Part shown: positions 1 to 15,512 of the stretch, piece by piece
Layout: each line of letters begins with the position of its first letter
Numbering within the stretch: the stretch's first letter is position 1
From: a virus
Lineage: Duplodnaviria; Heunggongvirae; Uroviricota; Caudoviricetes
DNA: 15,512 bases
IMG/VR virus record: IMGVR_UViG_2617270964_000015
Strand: one strand, 5' to 3'
Translations under genes and position numbers: made by a program
The notes under the pieces: model-generated
Database searches by the model: none
The model's input: only the letters and a program-made list of their open reading frames with translations
What the model was told of the DNA's origin: nothing

Positions 1-375
1 GACGAACAGTGGGGCTATGTCGGGGCTAAATCGCGCCAGCGCTGGCTGTTTTACGCGTATGACAGTCTCCGGAAGACGGTTGTTGCGCACGTATTCGGTG
101 AACGCACTATGGCGACGCTGGGGCGTCTTATGAGCCTGCTGTCACCCTTTGACGTGGTGATATGGATGACGGATGGCTGGCCGCTGTATGAATCCCGCCT
201 GAAGGGAAAGCTGCACGTAATCAGCAAGCGATATACGCAGCGAATTGAGCGGCATAACCTGAATCTGAGGCAGCACCTGGCACGGCTGGGACGGAAGTCG
301 CTGTCGTTCTCAAAATCGGTGGAGCTGCATGACAAAGTCATCGGGCATTATCTGAACATAAAACACTATCAATAA
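1..375 (+). CDS. insB: IS1 transposase InsB reading frame, 5'-truncated by the window edge
   Basis: Open frame from base 1 to TAA at 373-375; the ORF track reports the internal ATG at 109 (88 aa) but the frame is open from base 1 and matches InsB throughout. IS1 transposase is made as an InsA-InsB fusion by frameshifting, so an independent start is not expected. Confidence 0.85.
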
Positions 376-390
376 GTTGGAGTCATTACC
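1..390 (+). mobile_element. IS1: IS1 insertion sequence, 3' portion (element continues beyond the left window edge)
   Basis: Frame-1 translation from base 1 reads [44 protein letters not shown]...HYLNIKHYQ, which I recognise as the C-terminal part of IS1 InsB. Stop TAA at 373-375 is followed by the IS1 right terminal inverted repeat atcaataagttggagtcattacc at 368-390. Left end and any target-site duplication are outside the window. Confidence 0.9.
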
Positions 391-1257
391 GCCAGTTAGC
401 GCGCCATTTACACGTATTTCTATATTTTTCTCAGATTCAGAAAGCAGAGATATTATTCTTTTTGCACAGAGTTCGTCTATTTCATATAGATTCATTATTT
501 TCTTACCAAGAACAAACTCAATTTTTACAGGCAAGTCTTCAAAACTATTAATCATCTGATCGTCATTTTCATCATAAATCTCACTCTCGTTTTTTTTGAT
601 ATCAAAATCATCTGTTTCAAAATCTTCCTCGTACTCAAAATGATCAGCCATTTTTAACTCCTCTGGATAAATTAAATCAAAAATTTTTGTATTATAAATA
701 ACCGCATAAGCCAAATTATTTGAGATTAATAAAACATCACCAACTTCAATATCAACAAGACTTCTGTAACATGTTTTACTAAATCCAATTACAAAATGAA
801 TGGAGCAATATAACGATTTTTTGTCTAACGCTGGAGCGTTTCCGTATTGGCAGACTGTGACTTTATCTAACCAAAGATTCAATTCCCCTCTCCATATTCT
901 TATTAGTGGTTGAGCAGGGCTCAATACTCCATCAAATACTTTACCTACGCGCAAACGATTATATTTTAGTTCAGGATGCTTTAGATTTAACGGGGAACTG
1001 GATAAACTGAGCCATTCCCCTATTAACCTTTCCGTTTCTGGCATCAAAGCCATCCCAGCGAGCTCAGATGAAATTAAGGGAAATATTTCTCCAAGCAATA
1101 CCCATCCAGACCAGCTGCCACTCTCTTCTGCTATCGGTAGCCATTTAGCACTAAATTCGGGCATTAATAATGCAACATCTTCGCCATTTTCTTTCCAATT
1201 TTGAAAAGTGGTTTCAAACGTATGAGTGTTTCGATTTACTTTCCTCAGACCGAACAT
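391..1257 (-). pseudogene. Type III secretion SctQ/FliN-like protein with SpoA domains, 3' end cut by the IS1 insertion
   Basis: ATG at 1257-1255 with an AAGGA-like RBS upstream. The translation contains two SpoA-like segments, LVDIEVGDVLLISNN and DLPVKIEFVLGKKIMNLYEIDELCAKRIISLLSESEKNIEIRVNG, the second aligning closely to the FliN/SpaO C-terminal SpoA domain. The ORF-track frame (310..1257) continues into IS1 sequence, so the last ~27 codons are IS1-derived and the native C-terminus is lost. AT-rich by eye. Confidence 0.45.
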
Positions 1258-1388
1258 TAACTTTCATCCTTCTGATCGTTTTCGAATTTGCTTTCATTTT
1301 CTTGCTCCTCATAAGGCTGATGTCGTTGTCCTTGTCGTTCATCTTGCTCAGTCAATACCCAACGTTGTGCTGTAACTCATTATGAAAA

Positions 1389-2999
1389 CTATTTAATTCC
1401 CTCATCATTGATAAGATTGGACATCTCTTTCAACATGAGAGTCATTGAAGCTTTCGACCAATTTAGCGGAATGATAGGGCTTGGCGCTTCATGCAAAGTT
1501 CCCGACTTGTGGATATAGTTATAGCTTTCGGGAAGTGCCATTTCTGGTACGCTCCTGCCATTTGCACCAATCATATTCTCGCCTGTTATTTGGGCCAATG
1601 ATCTATTCATAAATTGCACTGAGTCATTCAAATACTCTTCTTTTCTTGATTCTTTATAAACAATTGCTGCTGATTTTGCATACCATGAGTCAAAAAACCA
1701 TTCTGCTTCTGTTGATGGAATGAAGCTCTTTTCTCTTTTCACATGTGAATTTTGATCGGTATCGGTTTTAATATCATTGAACCAAAAATTTGCCGACTGA
1801 TAATTATCCTTCTCGTATCTTTTTATACCATACGGACCTGCTAGTTTTTTAACTATTTTTAGAACCTGCTCTTTTCTTCTGGTGTTTATCTTTGCAAGAT
1901 TTGCAGGATAAATAACATTAAGTAAAGCCGCATCGGCTTCTCTGTAATGTTTATCTTTTTCCAGATAACCTGGGGATTCTCCCCCTAAATCAAGCTGTAA
2001 CGTTATTCTTTCATAACCTTTATCTATGAGGTGGTTCAACCTCGTTGTTGAAAGAGGTTCATCCAGTTCATTGGCTTTAGCTTCGCGTAGTAAATCAGAG
2101 ACAAAAACAGAGTCTTTCTTCGAGAGTAAGTTCGACAAACGTTCCAGTCCAGAGGTCACCAGTGCAACGGAAGATGTGTTTAATCGGGCATCTTCTTCCC
2201 ATGCTCCGGAATCTTCCATAACATAGAAATTGGCTTTATCCAGATAAGCAATCAGCAGCGCAACCGATTTTAATCGGTCACCTTTTTGCCAATCTTCAGC
2301 GTTAATTGTACCAGTGTCGATTGCTTGTATAAGGAGATCAAGATAAAGACCTAACGCATCATTTTGTTTATGGTTCCACAGCTGCGGCTTGCCTTCTTCC
2401 TGCACATCTGCCATCACGGGGAAGTTGCTGTCAAATCGGATATGCACAGCATTCATTTGCCCGGGAACTCCATCCAGTCGTTTGGGGTTGCTAATGACGT
2501 CCTGCATCCGCTTAATCTGGTCGGGCGTAGACATATAATCCCACAGGGTGAGCAGAACCTTTTTTGCGGCTACACTATTTCCCTGATCTGATACTAATGC
2601 CATATAGCCCCATAAACTATCCCTCAGCCAGACAGCATCATAGTGGGTTTCTGCCGCTGTTTTGTCATCTTCGAAAGTAGAAGCAAGAATAAATGTTCCC
2701 CAGGGTTTCTCCGTCAACGTTAACTTTCGTGTGTTTTCTGTTAATGTTAACAACCCTTGAATTTCGTCTTTGGTATAGTGGCTCTTTATTTCATTTTTTA
2801 ATTTGGCTGAGTGAATCAGAAGACGATAATTAGGGTACTTATCTGGATTTAACGATAAATAACTTTTATCTGTTGCTGCCCCCGTGGAATTAAGAATGTT
2901 AAATACAGATTCACTCGTCACTTCTGCCCCTGTCGCCTGGCATGTGCCGCACGAAAATATACCAGCGAGCAGAAGAGTTAATGCAGATTTCCCTTTCAT
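1389..2999 (-). CDS. Glycoside hydrolase family 15-like (glucoamylase-like) exported protein or lipoprotein
   Basis: Long ORF (track 1389..3041 begins at a GTG). The ATG at 2999-2997 gives MKGKSALTLLLAGIFSCGTCQA, a signal peptide with a possible lipobox cysteine. Internal DSGAWEED resembles the GH15 catalytic-region signature (S-G-x-W-E-E). AT-rich gene. Confidence 0.6.
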   Translation of the reverse strand: MKGKSALTLLLAGIFSCGTCQATGAEVTSESVFNILNSTGAATDKSYLSLNPDKYPNYRLLIHSAKLKNEIKSHYTKDEIQGLLTLTENTRKLTLTEKPWGTFILASTFEDDKTAAETHYDAVWLRDSLWGYMALVSDQGNSVAAKKVLLTLWDYMSTPDQIKRMQDVISNPKRLDGVPGQMNAVHIRFDSNFPVMADVQEEGKPQLWNHKQNDALGLYLDLLIQAIDTGTINAEDWQKGDRLKSVALLIAYLDKANFYVMEDSGAWEEDARLNTSSVALVTSGLERLSNLLSKKDSVFVSDLLREAKANELDEPLSTTRLNHLIDKGYERITLQLDLGGESPGYLEKDKHYREADAALLNVIYPANLAKINTRRKEQVLKIVKKLAGPYGIKRYEKDNYQSANFWFNDIKTDTDQNSHVKREKSFIPSTEAEWFFDSWYAKSAAIVYKESRKEEYLNDSVQFMNRSLAQITGENMIGANGRSVPEMALPESYNYIHKSGTLHEAPSPIIPLNWSKASMTLMLKEMSNLINDEGIK

Positions 3000-3306
3000 A
3001 AAATATTCCATCAATCGTTTGTTAAAAGCGTAGATAACCACTTATTTAACAACTTGAAAATAAGGTGTTTTACCTGGGTTGTTACAAAAGGATTGCATTG
3101 CGTAAACGCTTTTTATTTACAACAAAATGGGGAAATATTACGGCGATTGCGAAAAGTCTGAAGCGATTGAATTAAGATAATATAGAAAATCAGATACAGC
3201 AAAAATGGCAGATTGATGAGGCGAAGATAAATTGGAGCGGCGAAGGGAACAATACAACAAGCAACAAGACCAGTAATAAAGGCACATTCTCGAGTTCTAA
3301 AATAGA

Positions 3307-7430: not shown

Positions 7431-7969
7431 GCGCCTGTTTTCTCCCTGGCTGCCCGGCGCTGGCGTTTGCGCTTCTCATTCAGCGCCACCAGCCGCGTTT
7501 CTGCCTCCTGCTGTTCCTGTGGTGTCACTTCCCCACATGGCTGGCCTTTCAGGTCGTAGCGTCCCCCACCAGCCATTAAGGCGCGGTAATAGCGCGGACA
7601 CTGCGCATAAGATGCCAGCGTCGCACGTAATGCCCCTGGCCCGAATGCCAGCCCCCTGACGGCGAGATCCTGCATCAGGTCGTCGAATATCCCCACCTTA
7701 AGCGGCTTCGGTGCTTCCCGGCTGAATAATTCAGGCCACAGTTCGATAAGGCGGTTAACGCGTCTGCGGTTTTTGCGCTGGCGTTTGGTCATATGCCGCC
7801 ACGGTGTCGCCCCTGTGGGCTTCTGCTGCGCTTTCTGGTTATCGGGCATCACTTTATGCGCCGATGTGGTTTTATCCTGCTCCTGTGCCGCCTGCGTCGT
7901 TTTCTGCGGCGTGCCGTAAATGCCTTTAGGTTTTCTGTTAATGGTCAGCTTTGTCATGCTTTGCCCCAT
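7427..7969 (-). CDS. ProQ/FinO-family RNA-binding protein
   Basis: PLKVGIFDDLMQDLAVRGL...YRALMAGGGRYDLKGQPCGEVTPQEQQEAETRL parallels the ProQ N-terminal FinO-like domain as I recall it (PLKIGIF-DL, RYL, R-DL-G-PCGE) and is followed by a basic tail. ATG at 7969 or at 7957-7955; the latter has GGGG 6 nt upstream. Confidence 0.7.
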   Translation of the reverse strand: MGQSMTKLTINRKPKGIYGTPQKTTQAAQEQDKTTSAHKVMPDNQKAQQKPTGATPWRHMTKRQRKNRRRVNRLIELWPELFSREAPKPLKVGIFDDLMQDLAVRGLAFGPGALRATLASYAQCPRYYRALMAGGGRYDLKGQPCGEVTPQEQQEAETRLVALNEKRKRQRRAAREKTGA

Positions 7970-7974
7970 CGTTA

Positions 7975-8312
7975 CAACTGTCTACCAACTGTCTACTGAT
8001 ATAATTTATTGATTTATTTCATATTATTCACACATGAATAAAAAACAACCTATCAACTATCTACCAACTGTCTACCGCATTAATGCATTGATAATTAATG
8101 ATTTTTACTAAATGGTAGACAGAGTAGACAGTTAAAAGAGAAATTTTAAAAATGAACCCTTAACTATCTGTTTTTATATACCCCCCGTGGTTTAGGAATA
8201 TAGAAACAACTGTCTACTCTCTACCACATTTAAAAATATCTATACAATTCAATGTATTAATTGGTAGATAGTTGGTAGAGGGTTAAGTATTACTGTCTAC
8301 CAACAGTCTACC
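7975..8312. repeat. Iteron array: about 12 copies of a 10-11 bp motif CAACTGTCTAC(C) in six tandem pairs, both orientations; putative replication origin
   Basis: Direct pairs at 7975-7996 (caactgtctac x2), 8054-8075 (caactatctac + caactgtctac), 8207-8226 and 8292-8312. Inverted pairs at 8114-8133 (ggtagacagagtagacagtt) and 8262-8280 (ttggtagatagttggtagag). AT-rich stretches lie between pairs at about 8000-8050 and 8135-8200. The array sits directly 3' of the primase gene. Confidence 0.6.
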
Positions 8313-10638: not shown

Positions 10639-11000
10639 GATTCCCCCCCCCCCTGAATAACCTGATAACCGCAACTGGTCAGCAATTCGATAAATTCCGG
10701 CAATGTGCCGAAACAGCAATCATCACGCAGACGTTCGCGGGATACCTCAACGTCGTTTTCATAATGGCTCACCATGCGTCCGGTAAAATGCAAATCATCA
10801 TCGTGATGGCACGTTGACGGTTTAATCAGTCGCGCACGCTCTGCCAGTTCCAGCAATGCTTCAACACTTCCGGCAATTGCACCATCCGGCAGGTGGTAAT
10901 TACGCACTATGCGCCCGTTCTCCACATGGACCAGTAGCTGCCCGGTAAATTTCTCGTCAAACTGAATGCGGTTAAGGTCGGTAAGTGACAGGTTAATCAT
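10614..11000 (-). CDS. Hypothetical protein with two internal repeats (128 aa as read), ending just after a G11 tract
   Basis: ATG at 11000-10998 overlaps the upstream stop (ATGATTAA). Repeats DEKFTGQLLVHVENGRIV and DLHFTGRMVSHYENDVEV. C-terminus ...VIQGGGESWIISKQQ is encoded across the homopolymer. Confidence 0.5.
   Translation of the reverse strand: MINLSLTDLNRIQFDEKFTGQLLVHVENGRIVRNYHLPDGAIAGSVEALLELAERARLIKPSTCHHDDDLHFTGRMVSHYENDVEVSRERLRDDCCFGTLPEFIELLTSCGYQVIQGGGESWIISKQQ
10643..10653. repeat. Homopolymeric tract C11 (G11 on the coding minus strand) inside a coding region
   Basis: ttcccccccccccctg; eleven consecutive C at 10643-10653. Confidence 0.9.
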
Positions 11001-11358
11001 GGCGCACCTCCTGGCGAATACGGGCGGCGAATACCATCACGCAGCCATCAGGAGATTGCTGGCGTGCTTCCTGTTCGCTGGTGGCCTCGATGTGAATCAC
11101 GCGCGGTTGTGCCGTACTCAGGGCGATAAAACGCCAGATAGAATTGTTTTCGCATTTCTGAATAAACAGCGTGTTTTCTTCGCGCCCTTTCCATGTTGCC
11201 GAGATATAGCCCATGTCATTGAGCATCTCGCAGGCATCCACCAGCGTATCAGCGGCTACGTGTACAGTGTTTTTACCGTCAGCTATGCAATCACGGTGCA
11301 CCGCCAGGAAGGTGTATATAAATTTAGGGTGAGTTTGGGTATGCTGTGTTCCAGCCAT
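10993..11358 (-). CDS. Hypothetical protein (121 aa), first gene of the primase operon
   Basis: ATG at 11358-11356 with GAGG upstream on the coding strand. This is the 3' third of the 382-aa ORF-track entry 10993..12141, whose upstream part crosses the divergent regulatory region and a plus-strand gene. Stop overlaps the next start. Confidence 0.5.
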   Translation of the reverse strand: MAGTQHTQTHPKFIYTFLAVHRDCIADGKNTVHVAADTLVDACEMLNDMGYISATWKGREENTLFIQKCENNSIWRFIALSTAQPRVIHIEATSEQEARQQSPDGCVMVFAARIRQEVRHD

Positions 11359-11557
11359 AATCGTTACCTCGTTTAACGGTTTGGTTAGAAGCCCCGTTAC
11401 TGCTCCAACAGTGCGGGGCTTCGTTGTTTCAATTGCTGAATTGCATGTATCAGCCCTTGTGGTATTCAGATTACATTTTGGTGAATACCATTTCAAGTCT
11501 TTTTTGGTATTCACTTTTGTATTACACTGCATCCCGTTATTAATCGGAGGTGCAAAC
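11359..11557. promoter_or_regulatory. Divergent intergenic control region with hairpin and GGTATTCA operator-like repeats
   Basis: Stem-loop gaagccccg-(17 nt)-cggggcttc at about 11390-11425. Three copies of GGTATTCA / TGAATACC at about 11460-11516, one inverted. GGAGG at 11546-11550 precedes the ATG at 11558. Confidence 0.45.
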
Positions 11558-11863
11558 ATGTCCACGAGTTCTGTTAACAATAAGTCACAGCAACTGAATG
11601 CCAGATTTCCACATGAAGTAGTGAGTGGCATTGAGGCATCCCTACAGCCAGGGGAAACTAAAGCGAATTTTATAGTTACGGCTGTACGCGGTGAGATCGC
11701 CCGCCGCCAGGCAGAAGGAAGCGGAGAAAACCCCCTAGTTTCTTCGCTCGATGCGCTGGCGCAGGTGGAAAAAATCGGTGTCAAAGCTGCCGAGGAGATC
11801 GGGCAACTCGTCACCGTCGCGCGTGAAGAACTCCAGCGGCGCAAGGCCAAAGAACAGGAGTAG
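11558..11863 (+). CDS. Ribbon-helix-helix (Arc/MetJ-type) DNA-binding regulator, 101 aa
   Basis: ATG at 11558 seven nt after GGAGG; the ORF-track start at 11381 is unlikely because it crosses the control region. QQLNARFPHEVVSGIEA then ANFIVTAVRGEIARRQ fits the beta-strand-helix-helix pattern of Arc-like repressors. It is the only confident plus-strand gene inside the element. Confidence 0.55.
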   Translation: MSTSSVNNKSQQLNARFPHEVVSGIEASLQPGETKANFIVTAVRGEIARRQAEGSGENPLVSSLDALAQVEKIGVKAAEEIGQLVTVAREELQRRKAKEQE

Positions 11864-12087
11864 TTGATCAGCACCGGGCAACCAGAAAAAATCGTATCAG
11901 TTGCGCCACCAGCAAATTTTTTTGCTTTCCGGACGACGTTGCCAACGGCATTTTGCAGCAAAATATTCCGCATTTCTGGCGTACTGTAGTAACGGTGATC
12001 AGCGCCTTCACTCTGTGCGACCACAACGCTATAATCTGCCTCGTAGACAGTAAGCAATATAGCGCAGTAGAATATTCGTTCACAAAG

Positions 12088-12119
12088 GCGCTCCGGCAAC
12101 GGGGCGCTTTCTCTTTTTG
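12088..12119 (+). terminator. Intrinsic terminator-like hairpin, plus strand
   Basis: gcgctcc-ggcaac-ggggcgc (7-bp stem with one G-U pair, 12088-12107) followed by tttctctttttg (12108-12119). It lies about 225 nt past the stop of the plus-strand regulator gene and about 27 nt past the stop of the convergent minus-strand gene. Confidence 0.5.
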
Positions 12120-12133
12120 TAACGGTCAGAGCG

Positions 12134-12982
12134 TTACACATGGCTGTTTTCCTCCATGCGACGGGCTAACCAACGCTGCGAAAGACGAATTAATTCAGCT
12201 TTCCGCTGGTGGTAGTCCTGGCCTAACTCAATCAGCGTGATATTGCTCTGCTCAAGGTAAGAAAGGTGCTCAAGCTGCAACGTGCTCATGTGGTCGCGTG
12301 GTTCGCCTGTAATGCCGTTCGCCTGCGCCCACTGTTTTGCAGTCATGCCACCCAGCACGATACGCGCCAGCATATTGGCTTCCGTGGTGTAGTGGTGCTG
12401 GAGTGTGTTTTTACCCAGCTCAGCCCGGTATGCTTCCAGCGCGGCGCACATCGGCTTAAAGTAGCTGGCAACGGTGATACGGGCTTTCAGTTCCCGGCGT
12501 AACGCTGCGGAACGCACTGGCGCTACCTTGTGTAGCTCCTCCTCGCATTTGATGAAGTACTGACGAACGGCACGGCCCTGTTCGGTGCGTTCGACCATCG
12601 CCAGTTCTTTTGCCATGTTCGTGGAGATCAAATAGTCTTCACTGCGACGATCACCGCCGCGCTTTGTTGTCCAATCAGAATCAAACTGTTCAATATTTAC
12701 ACTTTGGTTCCCCCGTTTCGGGGAATCAAAGTACAAATTTTCTACAACTTTAAAATCCACGCCATTTTTAAATCCGTACTCATCAATACGTCCTTTAATC
12801 CAGGTAGTGAAATCACGGCCTCCCCCGAGCGCCTTATGCAACGCTCTGGCGCTAACAATATTGGTTTCACGCCCGCCAATAACGCCGGAAATAACCGGGA
12901 TAATTTCGCCGAAATTTTGCAGATTCTGGTTTTCAGGCCGAACTAAGCCCTGCCCCTGTACGGGCGTTTTTCGCTGTTTCAT
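12134..12982 (-). CDS. AntA/AntB-family phage antirepressor-like protein
   Basis: ATG at 12982-12980 with AGGAG 5 nt upstream. N-terminal region ARALHKALGGGRDFTTWIKGRIDEYGFKNGVDFKV ... MAKELAMVERTEQGRAVRQYFIKCEE matches the AntA-domain pattern I recall (DF-TWIK-RI--YGF, AKELAMVER--G---RQYFI-CE). Confidence 0.65.
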   Translation of the reverse strand: MKQRKTPVQGQGLVRPENQNLQNFGEIIPVISGVIGGRETNIVSARALHKALGGGRDFTTWIKGRIDEYGFKNGVDFKVVENLYFDSPKRGNQSVNIEQFDSDWTTKRGGDRRSEDYLISTNMAKELAMVERTEQGRAVRQYFIKCEEELHKVAPVRSAALRRELKARITVASYFKPMCAALEAYRAELGKNTLQHHYTTEANMLARIVLGGMTAKQWAQANGITGEPRDHMSTLQLEHLSYLEQSNITLIELGQDYHQRKAELIRLSQRWLARRMEENSHV

Positions 12983-13059
12983 AAAAACTCCTGCTAACGA
13001 ATTAAGTTACTTTTATTTGCTGGTGGATAGCTGGGGCTTCTGGCCCCGTAGCCATTTAA

Positions 13060-13260
13060 TCAGGTAGCTGTTCCGCGTGATTCCGCAATACGCTGATTAA
13101 TCCACTCGTCAATTTCACTCTCAACGAAAGCAATAGCTCGCGAGCCAATTTTTACAGGTTTAGGAAAACTCCCTTGGGCAATGAGTTTATAGATCCATGC
13201 CCTTCCATAGCCTGTACGGCGCATGGTTTCTGACATACGAATTAAATTTTGCTTATCCAT
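13060..13260 (-). CDS. alpA: AlpA-family transcriptional regulator / excisionase-like HTH protein
   Basis: MDKQNLIRMSETMRRTGYGRAWIYKLIAQGSFPKPVKIGSRAIAFVESEIDEWINQR matches the AlpA family (small HTH protein ending -EIDEWI-QR). ATG at 13260-13258 has AGGAG 6 nt upstream; the ORF-track start at 13305 is less likely. It lies downstream of int on the same strand, as in P4-like and PICI elements. Confidence 0.75.
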   Translation of the reverse strand: MDKQNLIRMSETMRRTGYGRAWIYKLIAQGSFPKPVKIGSRAIAFVESEIDEWINQRIAESRGTAT

Positions 13261-13317
13261 ACACTTCTCCTGATGCATATAAAAGTCTGTTTCTGGAATA
13301 TACACAAGAGAAGGATG

Positions 13318-13380
13318 TATTTTTTAAATTAAATATTAAAATTTAAATTAAATACAATTTAATTCAATTTAAATAATTTT
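13318..13380. repeat. AT-only low-complexity repeat (AATTTAAAT-type units) spanning the 3' end of the cargo gene and the alpA upstream region
   Basis: ttttttaaattaaatattaaaatttaaattaaatacaatttaattcaatttaaataatttt, with multiple overlapping direct and palindromic AAATT/AATTT units. Confidence 0.6.
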
Positions 13381-14267
13381 CTGTACTCCTCTGGGATAAC
13401 CAAGCGGAAATCATCTTTTGTTTCCACTCCTGTTTTGCCAATTCCTTCTGAACAAAGAATATTTCTAATTGTACCTACTTTAGGCGTATTAACAGCATCA
13501 ATAGAATAAAGCAAGGAGTGTATTTTATTGATAATTAATGTCGTATGGCTCCACGGATAAGAAATACGAGTAGCTTTCGCTACATCAACAATAACATTTC
13601 GATAGATATTTCTAGGCTTACCCACCATTTTGTTAATTGTTTCGCAACTACGTGAATTCACCCCATCCATTTTACTTTTAATAAAATCGGGATACTTTTC
13701 CATAGATGATTTGACTTGGTTTAATCTCCAATTTATTGTCACCCCACCATTTTTAAGCAAAAATAATTCACTTTTAGTTATAACTAAATCGCTTGTTTTA
13801 ATATTTATACCGCCATTAATTAAAATTACTCGTGGGTTATAATCCTCCAAGTTATAGTGCGTAAAAGATGGAAGCCTCACTGGATATAGCCTATCAACAA
13901 CAAATTCTTTTACGTTATCAAAATCAGCATCCATCTTAAAAAGATTGGATATTCGGACAGAAAAAAGACCACAGGCCTTAATGACTTTTCTATGTTTTAA
14001 CTTTCCATTAGATTCGCAACTAATAACTTCACTTATTTTTGCATAGTTAGAGCGATGTCTGAATTTTTTACTTCTTGTATTAGAAAATATTTCTTTATTA
14101 AATTTACCACGAACAGAGACCCTTCCTTCTTCAATAAGCTCTGACAAATCTATATTTATTGCTACATCAACCATTCCGATTGATATATAGTGAAATAAAT
14201 CATAAACATCTCTATTTATCTCAAAAGCTGCTTTATTCAGAGTGTAAAACAATCTTTCAGGAAGCAT
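13359..14267 (-). CDS. Hypothetical AT-rich cargo protein (302 aa) between int and alpA
   Basis: ATG at 14267-14265 with AGGTGA upstream, only about 30 bp after the integrase stop. Uninterrupted 302-codon ORF in clearly AT-rich DNA (by eye about one-third G+C, against about half in flanking int and alpA). Asn/Ile/Lys-rich; no catalytic motif I can name. Confidence 0.6.
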   Translation of the reverse strand: MLPERLFYTLNKAAFEINRDVYDLFHYISIGMVDVAINIDLSELIEEGRVSVRGKFNKEIFSNTRSKKFRHRSNYAKISEVISCESNGKLKHRKVIKACGLFSVRISNLFKMDADFDNVKEFVVDRLYPVRLPSFTHYNLEDYNPRVILINGGINIKTSDLVITKSELFLLKNGGVTINWRLNQVKSSMEKYPDFIKSKMDGVNSRSCETINKMVGKPRNIYRNVIVDVAKATRISYPWSHTTLIINKIHSLLYSIDAVNTPKVGTIRNILCSEGIGKTGVETKDDFRLVIPEEYRKLFKLN

Positions 14268-14297
14268 GATATCACCTATATAAGAATATCAATGTAA

Positions 14298-15512
14298 TCA
14301 ATCTAATTTTTCAGATTTTATGTAAACAACGTTTCCGCCATGCTCAAGCGAATCCATATAGTCGGCGTACCACTGGAGCATTTCCCGGCGACCATCCAGA
14401 TATTGCGCATGGTTGTATGTGCCACGAATTGAGTTTTTATCGGCGTGCGCAAGCTGTGTCTCTATCCACGCGGTGTTATAGCCCTGCTCATGCAAAATGG
14501 TGCTCATGGTGTGCCGGAATCCATGACCAGTAACGCGCCCGGCGTAGCCAATACGACGAATGAGCACATTCATTGCCATTTCACTCATTGGCTTACTGTG
14601 GTGAATACGACCGGGGAAAATAAACTGATACTGGCCTGTCATGTTTTTTAACTGCTCCAGTATTTTTATCGCCTGTTCTGGTAATGGCACACAATGCGGA
14701 CGGCGCATCTTCATTCGTTCTTTAGGCACTTCCCACAAACGATTATCAAAATCGATCTCCCGCCATTCTGCCTGCCGTAATTCCCCGGGTCTGACACCTG
14801 TCAGAATTAATAGCCGCATTGCCAGTTTGACGATCTGGCTTCCGGTGTACGTATTAAAAACGCGGAAAAATTCCGGCAGTTCGTCGGCCTTCAGATAGGC
14901 GTAATGCTCTTTTTTATGTGGAGCAAATGCGCTCACCAGGTCAGGGGCTGGATTATATTCGGCGCGTCCGGTGATGATTGCGTACCGGAACACCTCGCCA
15001 CATCGCTGGCGAACCTTACGCAATTTTTCAGTCGCACCACGGTCATTAAGACGGGAAAGAACCGCCAGCAATTCCATCGGCTTAATTTCTGCGATCGGCC
15101 TACCGCCAATGTACGGAAAAACATCTTTTTCAAACGTCTCGATCATTTCCTCGGCGTATGACGATGACCACCTGTCGATCCGCTTTTCGTACCATTCGCG
15201 AGCGATACCCTCAAAAGTATTGCCAAATTTGCTCGCCTGTTCTCGCTTTTGGGCTTTTCTGGCCTCACTTGGATTTATACCACCAGCAAGAAGCCTTTTA
15301 GCCTCATCCCTTGCCGCCCTGGCATCAGACAGAGACACATCAGGGTACACACCCAACGACAACATTTTGGGCTTTCCTGCAAACCTGTAGCGCAGTCGCC
15401 ACCCTTTCGAACCGTTCGGCTCAATGAGCAACGAAAGCCCGTTACCGTCATTGAGTGTATAAGCCTTTTCTTTCGGCTTCGCGCGCCTGATGGCAAGGTC
15501 TGAAAGCAGCAT
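14298..15512 (-). CDS. int: Tyrosine recombinase, P4-type phage integrase
   Basis: ATG occupies the last three bases of the window (15512-15510). N-terminus MLLSDLAIRRAKPKEKAYTLNDGNGLSLLIEPNGSKGWRLRYRF is the P4-integrase arm-binding signature. C-terminal catalytic region GHGFRHTMSTIL ... LAHADKNSIRGTYNHAQY carries the R/HxxR/Y residues. Upstream promoter and att site are outside the window. Confidence 0.85.
   Translation of the reverse strand: MLLSDLAIRRAKPKEKAYTLNDGNGLSLLIEPNGSKGWRLRYRFAGKPKMLSLGVYPDVSLSDARAARDEAKRLLAGGINPSEARKAQKREQASKFGNTFEGIAREWYEKRIDRWSSSYAEEMIETFEKDVFPYIGGRPIAEIKPMELLAVLSRLNDRGATEKLRKVRQRCGEVFRYAIITGRAEYNPAPDLVSAFAPHKKEHYAYLKADELPEFFRVFNTYTGSQIVKLAMRLLILTGVRPGELRQAEWREIDFDNRLWEVPKERMKMRRPHCVPLPEQAIKILEQLKNMTGQYQFIFPGRIHHSKPMSEMAMNVLIRRIGYAGRVTGHGFRHTMSTILHEQGYNTAWIETQLAHADKNSIRGTYNHAQYLDGRREMLQWYADYMDSLEHGGNVVYIKSEKLD

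What the first reader, a model, noticed from the sequence alone, without database searches (positions are those of the whole stretch)
13359..14267. AT-rich 302-aa cargo gene between int and alpA: candidate single-gene defence or exclusion function
The int-alpA interval of P4-like islands is a variable cargo position; from memory, E. coli K-12 CP4-57 carries the uncharacterised yfjH at the equivalent place. This ORF is much more AT-rich than both neighbours, starts only about 30 bp after the integrase stop with no room for its own promoter, and has no motif I recognise. That is the usual profile of a recently acquired accessory gene, and such slots are known to host anti-phage genes.
Basis: partly seen in the sequence, partly recalled or inferred. 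Interest (0 to 1): 0.65.

Follow-up and report, generated by a model that had tools for sequence, protein, structure and literature searches.

The report
DNA-binding partner gene of satellite alpA
The AT-rich 302-codon gene is real, but it looks less like an anti-phage cargo gene than a member of an undescribed family that always sits just upstream of the satellite switch gene alpA and probably controls that switch through repeats at its own stop codon.

Summary
ORF 13359-14267 (-) encodes 302 aa, has GC 0.32 against 0.50 for int, and starts 30 nt after the int stop.

The window is an E. coli PICI-type phage satellite at tRNA-Gly. It runs int, ORF302, alpA, antA, primase, ProQ, PerC.

ORF302 matches nothing in Pfam, NCBIfam, PADLOC or PDB sequences. 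It does have remote relatives at 20-40% identity. In all 24 informative contexts (E. coli, Buttiauxella, Gilliamella, IMG/VR contigs), the relative lies directly upstream of alpA on the same strand.

Close E. coli relatives carry unrelated genes in the same slot. The exchange has sharp boundaries at 13216-14325, which includes the alpA upstream region.

A 10-14-bp motif repeated at 19-22-bp spacing starts at or next to the gene's stop codon. The motif differs between subfamilies and follows ORF302 type, not AlpA or Int type.

Best reading (inferred): a sequence-specific DNA-binding regulator that gates alpA. The defence-cargo reading is not supported, but it is not excluded either.

The parts
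14298..15512 (-). Tyrosine integrase (404 aa) of the satellite. The element is integrated at tRNA-Gly just beyond the window end.
   Evidence: Pfam Arm-DNA-bind_3, Phage_int_M and Phage_integrase. tRNA-Gly lies next to int in the near-identical loci L001 and L002.
14268..14297 (-). 30-nt int-ORF302 spacer carrying the Shine-Dalgarno-like AGGTGA. Co-transcription with int is inferred.
   Evidence: Sequence. No minus-strand promoter-like site. In relatives the gene overlaps int by 4 nt (L031) or starts 2 nt after the int ORF (L025).
13359..14267 (-). ORF302, called 'X' here: a member of an undescribed protein family found directly upstream of alpA.
14127..14267 (-). Codons 1-47: N-terminal beta-alpha-alpha-beta winged-helix-like domain. 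It carries the family motif LPERxYYxLxKAAxxL..DLxHxxxIG.
13797..14120 (-). Codons 50-157: antiparallel beta-sheet domain with no fold match. This is the most variable part between subfamilies.
   Evidence: AF2 model. No significant Foldseek PDB or BFVD hit. Alignment A1.
13743..13796 (-). Codons 158-175: second conserved family motif, DLxITxxELxLLxxGG.
   Evidence: Alignments A1 and A6.
13443..13613 (-). Codons 219-275: C-terminal three-helix domain. It is followed by the conserved (Y/F)ELVIP tail at codons about 290-297.
   Evidence: AF2 pLDDT 90-93. Alignments A1 and A5.
13323..13375 (-). Three phased copies of TATTTAA(T/A)TT(A/G)AA at 13363-13375 (inside the last codons), 13342-13354 and 13323-13335, spaced 19-21 bp. 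Putative binding sites of ORF302.
   Evidence: The only matches in the 15.5-kb window: 6 strand-hits against 1.19 expected. A 13-nt exact repeat was seen in 0 of 300 shuffles. The repeats are identical in L001 and L002. The same architecture with other motifs occurs in relatives.
13261..13358 (-). ORF302-alpA intergenic region. It holds the repeats and, by inference, the alpA promoter.
13216..14325 (.). Exchangeable cassette. It comprises the last 9 codons of int, ORF302, the spacer with the repeats, and the first 15 codons of alpA.
   Evidence: blastn breakpoints are identical in all seven E. coli loci that carry other slot genes.
13060..13260 (-). alpA (66 aa), the satellite's activator/excisionase-type switch gene.
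   Evidence: Pfam Phage_AlpA, 4e-19. Start taken from RefSeq annotation and from the alignment of relatives.

Best explanation
ORF302 is the E. coli representative of an undescribed family of satellite proteins ('X') that belongs to the int-X-alpA control module of Gram-negative phage-inducible chromosomal islands (PICIs).

Proposed mechanism:
- It is probably made together with the integrase while the island is quiescent.
- It binds, through its N-terminal Xis/MerR-like winged helix, to the phased repeats that begin at its own stop codon, 75-115 nt upstream of the alpA start.
- From there it gates expression of alpA, the gene whose product triggers excision and replication.
- The geometry (sites on the path from int-X into alpA, all genes co-directional) favours negative control by promoter occlusion or roadblock. 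The variable beta and C-terminal domains would then receive the signal, for example a helper-phage protein.
- Protein and sites are exchanged together as a cassette, much like an immunity region.

Shown here: the family, the synteny, the cassette boundaries, the repeats, and their co-variation with X type.

Inferred: DNA binding by X, control of alpA, and the sign of that control.
For: 1. Synteny. X relatives at 20-40% identity lie immediately upstream of an alpA homologue on the same strand in 24 of 24 informative contexts. Int lies upstream wherever the contig reaches that far.
2. Link to alpA rather than int. The X-alpA spacer is always about 50-220 nt. The int-X distance ranges from a 4-nt overlap to 2.6 kb with extra genes in between.
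3. Cassette. Homology with elements carrying other slot genes is lost exactly between 13216 and 14325, so X travels with the alpA upstream region.
4. Repeats.
   - A motif repeated at 19-22-bp spacing starts within -25..+15 of the X stop codon in 10 of 19 loci at 10/12 matches, against 1.3% of background windows (P about 1e-14).
   - At 11/12 matches the count is 6 of 19 against 0.24%.
   - Most other loci have a palindrome at the stop codon.
5. Co-variation with X, not AlpA or Int.
   - L011 and L038-L040 share TGGAATATTCCA x2, with X 40% identical but AlpA only 29% and different int types.
   - L038 vs the window (AlpA 61%), L011 vs L023 (AlpA 75%) and L003 vs L017 (AlpA nearly identical) have different motifs.
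   - Window and L003 int are 98.6% identical, yet their motifs differ.
6. Protein features.
   - Net charge is about +15, there is no transmembrane segment, and no column of the 19-sequence alignment is invariant or nearly so, so no catalytic motif stands out.
7. Literature.
   - How alpA is kept silent and then induced in Gram-negative PICIs is unresolved (PMC6092414).
   - In Vibrio PICMIs the gene between int and alpA (iolg) is needed for excision, and 13 unrelated families occupy that position (PMC10803314).
Against: - Binding of X to the repeats is inferred from position and co-variation only.
- In AT-rich spacers some of the repeats are of low complexity.
- L047 and L048 have an intrinsic-terminator-like hairpin between the repeats and alpA. 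That separates the sites from any alpA promoter downstream of it.
- EcCICFT073, a functional PICI, has no gene between int and alpA (PMC6092414). X therefore cannot be a universal requirement.
- The PICMI iolg deletion abolishes excision rather than causing constitutive induction (PMC10803314). If the genes are functional analogues, that argues against a simple repressor.
- Unrelated proteins replace X next to nearly the same Int and AlpA, which a cargo slot would also produce.
Confidence: 0.45

Rival explanations
1. Integrase/AlpA recombination cofactor. X works like the PICMI iolg product: it is made with Int and joins Int and AlpA in the excision (or integration) complex, rather than controlling alpA transcription.
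For: - iolg lies between int and alpA, overlaps int by ATGA, and is required for helper-induced excision and transfer of PICMI115. The iolg/icg genes fall into 13 unrelated families (PMC10803314).
- X overlaps int by 4 nt in Buttiauxella, starts 2 nt after the int ORF in L025, and starts 30 nt after int here.
- The N-terminal domain resembles excisionases such as Pukovnik Xis and RdfS.
Against: - The invariant neighbour is alpA, not int. Up to 2.6 kb and several genes can separate int from X.
- The repeats are more than 2 kb from the attachment site at tRNA-Gly, too far to be arm sites.
- Unrelated proteins replace X beside a 98.6% identical Int, which is hard to reconcile with a specific protein-protein partner.
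- EcCICFT073 excises without such a gene (PMC6092414).
Confidence: 0.2
2. Accessory cargo. This is the first reader's reading: a single-gene anti-phage defence, or an exclusion function directed against other phages or satellites, sitting in a hotspot.
For: - The slot holds alternative unrelated genes in near-identical elements.
- The gene is AT-rich and rare.
- The quiescent-state expression implied by the 30-nt link to int would suit a defence gene.
- Satellites are known to carry defence hotspots (cited in PMC10803314). EcCIMP1 shows an unexplained immunity phenotype with no known system (PMC11773190).
Against: - No PADLOC hit for any of the 19 family members.
- No enzymatic or membrane features.
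- The family was never found outside the X-alpA arrangement (24 of 24), and there is no tblastn hit in the phage or plasmid collections.
- It has co-diverged with int rather than arriving recently.
- The slot always holds one gene of about 240-300 aa, with its own repeats. That looks like replacement by functional analogues rather than random cargo.
- Where extra genes do occur (a toxin-antitoxin-like pair in L012, small ORFs in L007), they lie upstream of X, i.e. on its int side.
Confidence: 0.15
3. Packaging or other site-specific DNA function. X acts like a small-terminase or other recognition protein, and the repeats beside its gene serve as a pac-like or partition-like site.
For: - From general knowledge of pac-type phages, recognition sites often lie in or next to the gene of the protein that binds them.
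Against: - There is no similarity to terminase families in Pfam or PHROGs.
- The beta-sheet middle domain is unlike the helical oligomerisation domain of small terminases.
- A position in the integration zone, with likely expression in the quiescent state, does not fit a late packaging function.
Confidence: 0.05

Closest known systems
iolg/icg genes (integrase-overlapping or integrase-contiguous genes) of Vibrionaceae PICMI satellites (PMC10803314)
   Same: - A single gene between int and alpA, on the same strand, abutting or overlapping int.
- Many unrelated families occupy the position.
- No recognisable domains.
   Different: - Homology could not be tested because no IOLG sequence was available.
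- PICMI hosts are Vibrionaceae and the elements integrate at fis. Here the host is E. coli and the site is tRNA-Gly.
- No operator-like repeats or DNA-binding role were described for iolg.
- Here the tight link is to alpA rather than to int.
Stl/Rpr master repressors of Gram-positive PICIs (SaPIs) (PMC6092414, PMC6695447)
   Same: [quoted passage not shown]
- About 250-300 aa, with an N-terminal DNA-binding domain followed by variable domains.
- Extremely divergent between islands.
- Sites lie between the regulator gene and the genes that start the island cycle.
   Different: - No sequence or fold match was found.
- Stl is transcribed divergently from its target operon, whereas X is co-directional with alpA and its sites overlap its own stop codon.
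- Repressor activity is not shown for X.
AlpA/Vis/Xis/TorI and MerR-type winged-helix proteins (Pfam PF05930, PF12728)
   Same: The predicted beta-alpha-alpha-beta-beta topology and spacing of the first 47 residues match. The best structural neighbours are MerR regulators and excisionases.
   Different: - No HMM match, and the profile comparison with AlpA is not significant.
- X is 4-5 times longer, with a beta domain and a C-terminal helical domain that these proteins lack.
Immunity regions of lambdoid phages (general knowledge)
   Same: A regulator gene and its operators are exchanged together between otherwise homologous genomes, with breakpoints in the conserved flanking genes.
   Different: The regulator is unrelated to CI/Cro. 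The element is a satellite. Immunity between satellites has not been tested.

Membership tests
Known anti-phage defence systems (PADLOC-DB 2.0 models) | Significant match to a defence-protein HMM | tested here: not met
   0 families for ORF302 at E<=1. 0 families for all 19 family members at E<=0.01.
Known anti-phage defence systems (PADLOC-DB 2.0 models) | Occurs in varied contexts (defence islands, prophages, plasmids) rather than one fixed position | tested here: not met
   24 of 24 informative contexts are X followed by alpA. No tblastn hit in 50,697 phage or 72,556 plasmid records.
Known anti-phage defence systems (PADLOC-DB 2.0 models) | Reduces phage plaquing when expressed | not testable with these tools
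   Needs cloning and a phage panel.
PICMI iolg/icg class | Lies between int and alpA on the same strand, overlapping or contiguous with int | tested here: met
   30-nt gap here. 4-nt overlap in L031. X starts 2 nt after the int ORF in L025. alpA lies directly downstream.
PICMI iolg/icg class | Sequence homology to one of the 13 PICMI iolg/icg families | not testable with these tools
   No IOLG sequence in the paper or its supplements.
PICMI iolg/icg class | Required for helper-induced excision | not testable with these tools
   Needs genetics.
AlpA/Xis/MerR winged-helix DNA-binding domain | HMM match to PF05930, PF12728 or MerR models | tested here: not met
   No Pfam hit for ORF302 or for any of the 19 members.
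AlpA/Xis/MerR winged-helix DNA-binding domain | Fold similarity of the N-terminal domain | tested here: inconclusive
Stl/Rpr-type PICI master repressor | Gene next to int and co-directional with it | tested here: met
Stl/Rpr-type PICI master repressor | Divergent arrangement with the operon it represses | tested here: not met
   X and alpA are on the same strand in every locus.
Stl/Rpr-type PICI master repressor | Cognate operators between the regulator gene and its target | tested here: inconclusive
   Subfamily-specific repeats are present and co-vary with X. Binding has not been tested.
Gram-negative PICI (the element that carries the gene) | Co-directional int, alpA and primase; integrated at a specific site; no phage structural module | tested here: met
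   Pfam assignments. tRNA-Gly site and annotation in L001-L003. The layout matches the zones described in PMC10111431.
Rfam int-alpA RNA (RF02996) | Covariance-model match between int and alpA in the window | tested here: not met
   No hit in the window at the gathering threshold. The int-X gap here is only 30 nt.

The most novel reading that the evidence does not exclude
The gene immediately upstream of alpA is the missing master regulator of many Gram-negative PICIs.
- It is a fast-evolving DNA-binding protein that sits on repeats at its own stop codon and blocks alpA expression until a helper-phage product removes it.
- The int-alpA slot is then an immunity or induction-specificity region with interchangeable cassettes (X family, 265-aa family, 238-aa family, PICMI iolg families), not a cargo hotspot.
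- The Rfam 'int-alpA RNA' would be a leader or other element associated with this regulator gene.
Probability: 0.3. Interest if true: 0.8.

Novelty: new variant of a known kind. Interest (0 to 1): 0.6.

Why it matters
How helper phages switch on alpA in Gram-negative phage-inducible islands, and what keeps alpA silent beforehand, is an acknowledged open question (PMC6092414, PMC10803314).

This analysis offers a concrete candidate that can be tested directly. It is a protein family with no annotation that is always glued to alpA, together with its likely binding sites. It also offers a natural swap experiment, because E. coli strains carry the same island with three different cassettes.

The result also cautions against reading every AT-rich variable gene next to an integrase as defence cargo. 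Finally, it suggests what the orphan Rfam motif 'int-alpA RNA' is associated with.

Tried and rejected
- **Family libraries.** Pfam, NCBIfam, PHROGs, PADLOC and PDB sequence searches of ORF302 gave nothing usable. Profile searches of PDB with the N- and C-terminal alignments gave nothing. PHROGs on all members gave only weak hits to phrog_13283, of unknown function.
- **Structure.**
  - The single-sequence AlphaFold model was useless (pLDDT 28).
  - Foldseek against PDB and BFVD found no significant match for the good model.
  - The AFDB library was unavailable.
- **Word-indexed homologue search.**
  - The full-length searches returned only two close clusters, plus one remote Gilliamella hit with the profile.
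  - The search with the N-terminal profile returned only short fragments.
- **Locus search with alignments.** Alignment A6 worked.
- **Relation to other slot genes.** The idea that the E. coli 265-aa and 238-aa slot genes, or K-12 yfjH, are divergent relatives of ORF302 was rejected by hhalign.
- **Who binds the repeats.** AlpA or Int binding the repeats was rejected, because the motifs differ between loci with near-identical AlpA or Int and agree between loci with different ones.
- **Promoter and terminator.** The consensus scan found no minus-strand promoter-like site anywhere in 12900-15512. Its three minus-strand terminator-like hairpins lie inside the int and ORF302 coding regions, with none between ORF302 and alpA. 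The sign of regulation therefore could not be deduced.
- **PICMI IOLG.** Its sequence could not be obtained from the paper or its supplements.

Full report
**Observation**

- It begins 30 nt after the stop of a 404-aa tyrosine integrase (14298..15512). An AGGTGA ribosome-binding site sits in the spacer.
- Its GC content is 0.316 (GC3 0.244). Int is 0.496, alpA 0.438 and antA 0.515.
- Downstream lies alpA (Pfam Phage_AlpA, 4e-19). From RefSeq annotation and an alignment of relatives, alpA starts at ATG 13260, which leaves a 98-nt spacer.
- The ORF is under purifying selection, with dN/dS 0.20-0.22 against two other alleles. It is therefore a real gene.

**Setting**

The window is E. coli DNA, 99.8% identical to strain EC02 over 12001-15512, and the whole-window match to EC02 is 98.5%.
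- Positions from about 3.2 kb to the right end are a Gram-negative PICI-type satellite integrated at tRNA-Gly.
- Its gene order is int, ORF302, alpA, AntA/Bro-type gene, Icd-like, DUF4222, D5-type primase, ProQ, PerC and several unknowns, all on one strand.
- This matches the zone layout described for such islands (PMC10111431).
- The left 3 kb are remnants of the ETT2 type III secretion island.

**Is it an orphan?**

The DNA of ORF302 occurs in only 2 of 5426 complete E. coli genomes, both in the same slot. The protein has no hit in Pfam, NCBIfam or PADLOC, only insignificant PHROG hits (E>=0.07), and no significant hit to PDB sequences. There is also no tblastn hit in the phage or plasmid collections.

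An exhaustive phmmer search of 1.84 billion representatives nevertheless found 19 proteins of 181-344 aa (plus one 64-aa fragment), at about 20-40% identity outside the close E. coli alleles. The alignment shows:
- a shared N-terminal motif, LPERxYYxLxKAAxxL..DLxHxxxIG;
- a central motif, DLxITxxELxLLxxGG;
- in one branch, a C-terminal domain ending in (Y/F)ELVIP.

None of these relatives has a Pfam or PADLOC match.

**Context of the relatives**

Every relative whose surroundings could be read lies directly upstream of an AlpA homologue on the same strand. An integrase lies further upstream whenever the contig reaches that far. The contexts are:
- Gilliamella (L004) and metagenomic contigs L007, L010, L011, L022, L023/24, L025/26 and L027;
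- Buttiauxella massiliensis (L031), where the gene overlaps int by 4 nt;
- fifteen IMG/VR contigs, L034-L048.

That is 24 of 24 informative contexts, spanning at least five AlpA types and several integrase types. One decayed copy in Serratia and one doubtful alphaproteobacterial hit were set aside.

The distance from X to alpA is always short, about 50-220 nt. The distance from int to X varies from an overlap to 2.6 kb with extra small genes. The fixed partner is therefore alpA.

**The slot in close relatives**

E. coli islands whose int is up to 98.6% identical, and whose alpA region is 84-94% identical, carry a different single gene in the slot. It is a 265-aa protein in most cases and a 238-aa protein in one. 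hhalign shows no relation of these, or of K-12 yfjH, to the ORF302 family. yfjH is also on the opposite strand.

The homology breakpoints are the same in all seven loci: similarity is lost between 13216 and 14325. The exchanged unit is therefore the last 9 int codons, the slot gene, the whole spacer, and the first 15 alpA codons.

ORF302 is not a recent arrival in its own lineage. Its synonymous divergence from the most distant allele (dS 0.19) equals that of the adjacent int (0.20).

**Structure**

With the 19-sequence alignment, AlphaFold gave mean pLDDT 79. The model has these parts:
- a small beta-alpha-alpha-beta unit (residues 1-47);
- a six-stranded beta domain (50-157);
- the conserved strand-helix motif (158-175);
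- a disordered linker (184-218);
- a three-helix C-terminal domain (219-275).

A profile comparison of the N-terminal domain with AlpA aligns the expected register but is not significant. The protein is basic, has no membrane segment, and the 19-sequence alignment has no invariant or nearly invariant column, so no catalytic motif stands out. The winged-helix assignment is therefore plausible but not established.

**Repeats at the stop codon**

In the window, TATTTAATTTAAA occurs twice exactly (13342-13354 and 13323-13335). A third copy with two mismatches lies inside the last codons (13363-13375). The spacing is 19-21 bp, and the motif occurs nowhere else in the window.

Relatives show the same layout with other sequences:

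| Loci | Motif | Spacing |
|---|---|---|
| L011, L038-L040 | TGGAATATTCCA x2 | 21 bp |
| L025, L031, L041, L046 | GTGA(A/T)(A/T)TCAC; the TGA stop codon is part of the palindrome | 20-21 bp (second copy degenerate in L025 and L046) |
| L035 | AAATTT(A/G)GAACA | 21 bp |
| L047 | TG(A/G)AAAAGTCTAATT | 20 bp |
| L042-L044, L048, L034, L022 | palindromes at the stop codon | n/a |

Across 19 loci, a 10/12 direct repeat at 19-22-bp spacing starts within -25..+15 of the stop codon in 10. The background rate is 1.3% of windows (P about 1e-14). At 11/12 the count is 6 of 19 against 0.24%.

The unrelated 265-aa cassette has three to four copies of ACCCTGAGGGT in its spacer, and no exact copy elsewhere in that locus.

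**Who binds the repeats?**

The motif follows the X subfamily, not AlpA or Int:
- L011 and L038 share the motif. Their X proteins are 40% identical, their AlpA proteins only 29%, and their integrases are of different types.
- L038 and the window have 61% identical AlpA but different motifs.
- L011 and L023 have 75% identical AlpA but different motifs.
- L003 and L017 have nearly identical AlpA but different slot genes and different repeats.
- The window and L003 have 98.6% identical int but different motifs.

The simplest reading is that the slot protein recognises the repeats next to its own gene.

**Interpretation**

The evidence supports a sequence-specific DNA-binding protein that belongs to the alpA control region. 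I infer that it gates alpA.
- The sites lie on the only transcriptional path from int-X into alpA, and 75-115 nt before the alpA start codon. That favours occlusion or roadblock.
- The variable domains would act as the input, and cassette exchange would change specificity.

This would bear on an open question. The first study of Gram-negative PICIs found no repressor and showed only that alpA expression depends on a helper phage (PMC6092414).

The sign of control is not settled.
- In Vibrio PICMIs, deleting the gene at this position (iolg) abolished excision, and the authors proposed an excision complex of Int, IOLG and AlpA (PMC10803314).
- A sensor-activator or a recombination cofactor therefore remain serious alternatives.
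- X cannot be universal, because EcCICFT073 has a 365-bp gap with no annotated gene between int and alpA yet is fully functional (PMC6092414).
- In L047 and L048 a terminator-like hairpin lies between the repeats and alpA, which complicates a simple operator model.

**The defence reading**

The slot is indeed variable and the gene is AT-rich and rare. Four findings point away from a portable defence gene:
- the fixed partnership with alpA;
- the absence of the family from any other context;
- the lack of any defence-model hit for 19 members;
- co-divergence with int.

Where extra genes do occur (a toxin-antitoxin-like pair in L012, small ORFs in L007), they lie upstream of X, i.e. on its int side. 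No experiment has been done, so exclusion of phages or of rival satellites stays possible. I put it at about 0.15.

**Novelty and verdict**

Genes between int and alpA have been noted before: iolg/icg in PICMIs, and the unexplained EcCIMP1_002 (PMC10803314, PMC11773190). No function beyond 'needed for excision' is known.

What is new here:
- the family itself;
- its strict linkage to alpA across genera;
- the cassette boundaries;
- the subfamily-specific repeats at the stop codon.

I rate it a new variant of a known kind, with interest 0.6. The best explanation has confidence 0.45.

Noticed in passing
L003 15745-15812; L014 1900-1967; L011 1585-1652; L023 5913-5980; L034 1348-1411; L042 3895-3965; L044 1491-1561: The orphan Rfam motif 'int-alpA RNA' (RF02996) lies between int and the slot gene, 17-118 nt (mostly about 20-35 nt) before its start codon. 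This holds for both the ORF302 family and the unrelated 265-aa family. It may be a leader or other RNA element associated with the slot gene. It is absent from the window, where the gap is 30 nt.
   Followed up: partly
window 310-3041: The AT-rich left end is not part of the satellite. It holds a FliN/YscQ-like ORF (310-1257) and a glycoside-hydrolase-15-like ORF (1389-3041; RefSeq relatives annotate this region as ygeQ or GH15 family protein), which are remnants of the ETT2 type III secretion island next to tRNA-Gly.
   Followed up: partly
window 13060-13305: The mechanical ORF list starts alpA at GTG 13305 (81 aa). RefSeq relatives and the alignment support ATG 13260 (66 aa), preceded by AGGAGA.
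   Followed up: yes
window 10993-12141: A 382-aa mechanical ORF spans the region that RefSeq relatives annotate as a short Icd-like gene plus small ORFs. It is probably not one gene. Only its C-terminal part resembles the Icd-like region seen in L031.
   Followed up: no
L030 about 8185-8245 (E. coli CFT073): [quoted passage not shown]
   Followed up: no
L025 6765-6802; L046 about 775-815 (inside the longer alpA-like ORF called there): A perfect 11-bp hairpin (AAATGCTCCTG ... CAGGAGCATTT) contains the alpA ribosome-binding site in L025 (4 of 300 shuffles), and the same hairpin is present in L046. It may be a translational or termination control element.
   Followed up: no
L004 about 7880-8000 (Gilliamella): The called start of P0020 is too far downstream. 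The conserved N-terminal domain (KLPPIPFITLERAAKLLDC...) is encoded just upstream, in what looks like the same reading frame as the gene.
   Followed up: partly
L012 1152-2031; L007 2158-3855: Extra genes (a Gp49/HTH_3 toxin-antitoxin-like pair, and small ORFs) lie upstream of the ORF302 relative, between int and it in L007. The real cargo position may therefore be on the int side of the gene.
   Followed up: no
L023 8923-9138; L034 3981-4208: P4-type immunity RNA motifs (isrK and C4) occur in the Bro zone of two related satellites. None was found in the window at the gathering threshold.
   Followed up: no
L047 4810-4845; L048 4825-4860: A GC-rich hairpin followed by a T run (GCCGCCCAC..GGGCGGC TATATTTTT) lies between the repeats and alpA, a terminator-like element that is absent from the window.
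   Followed up: no
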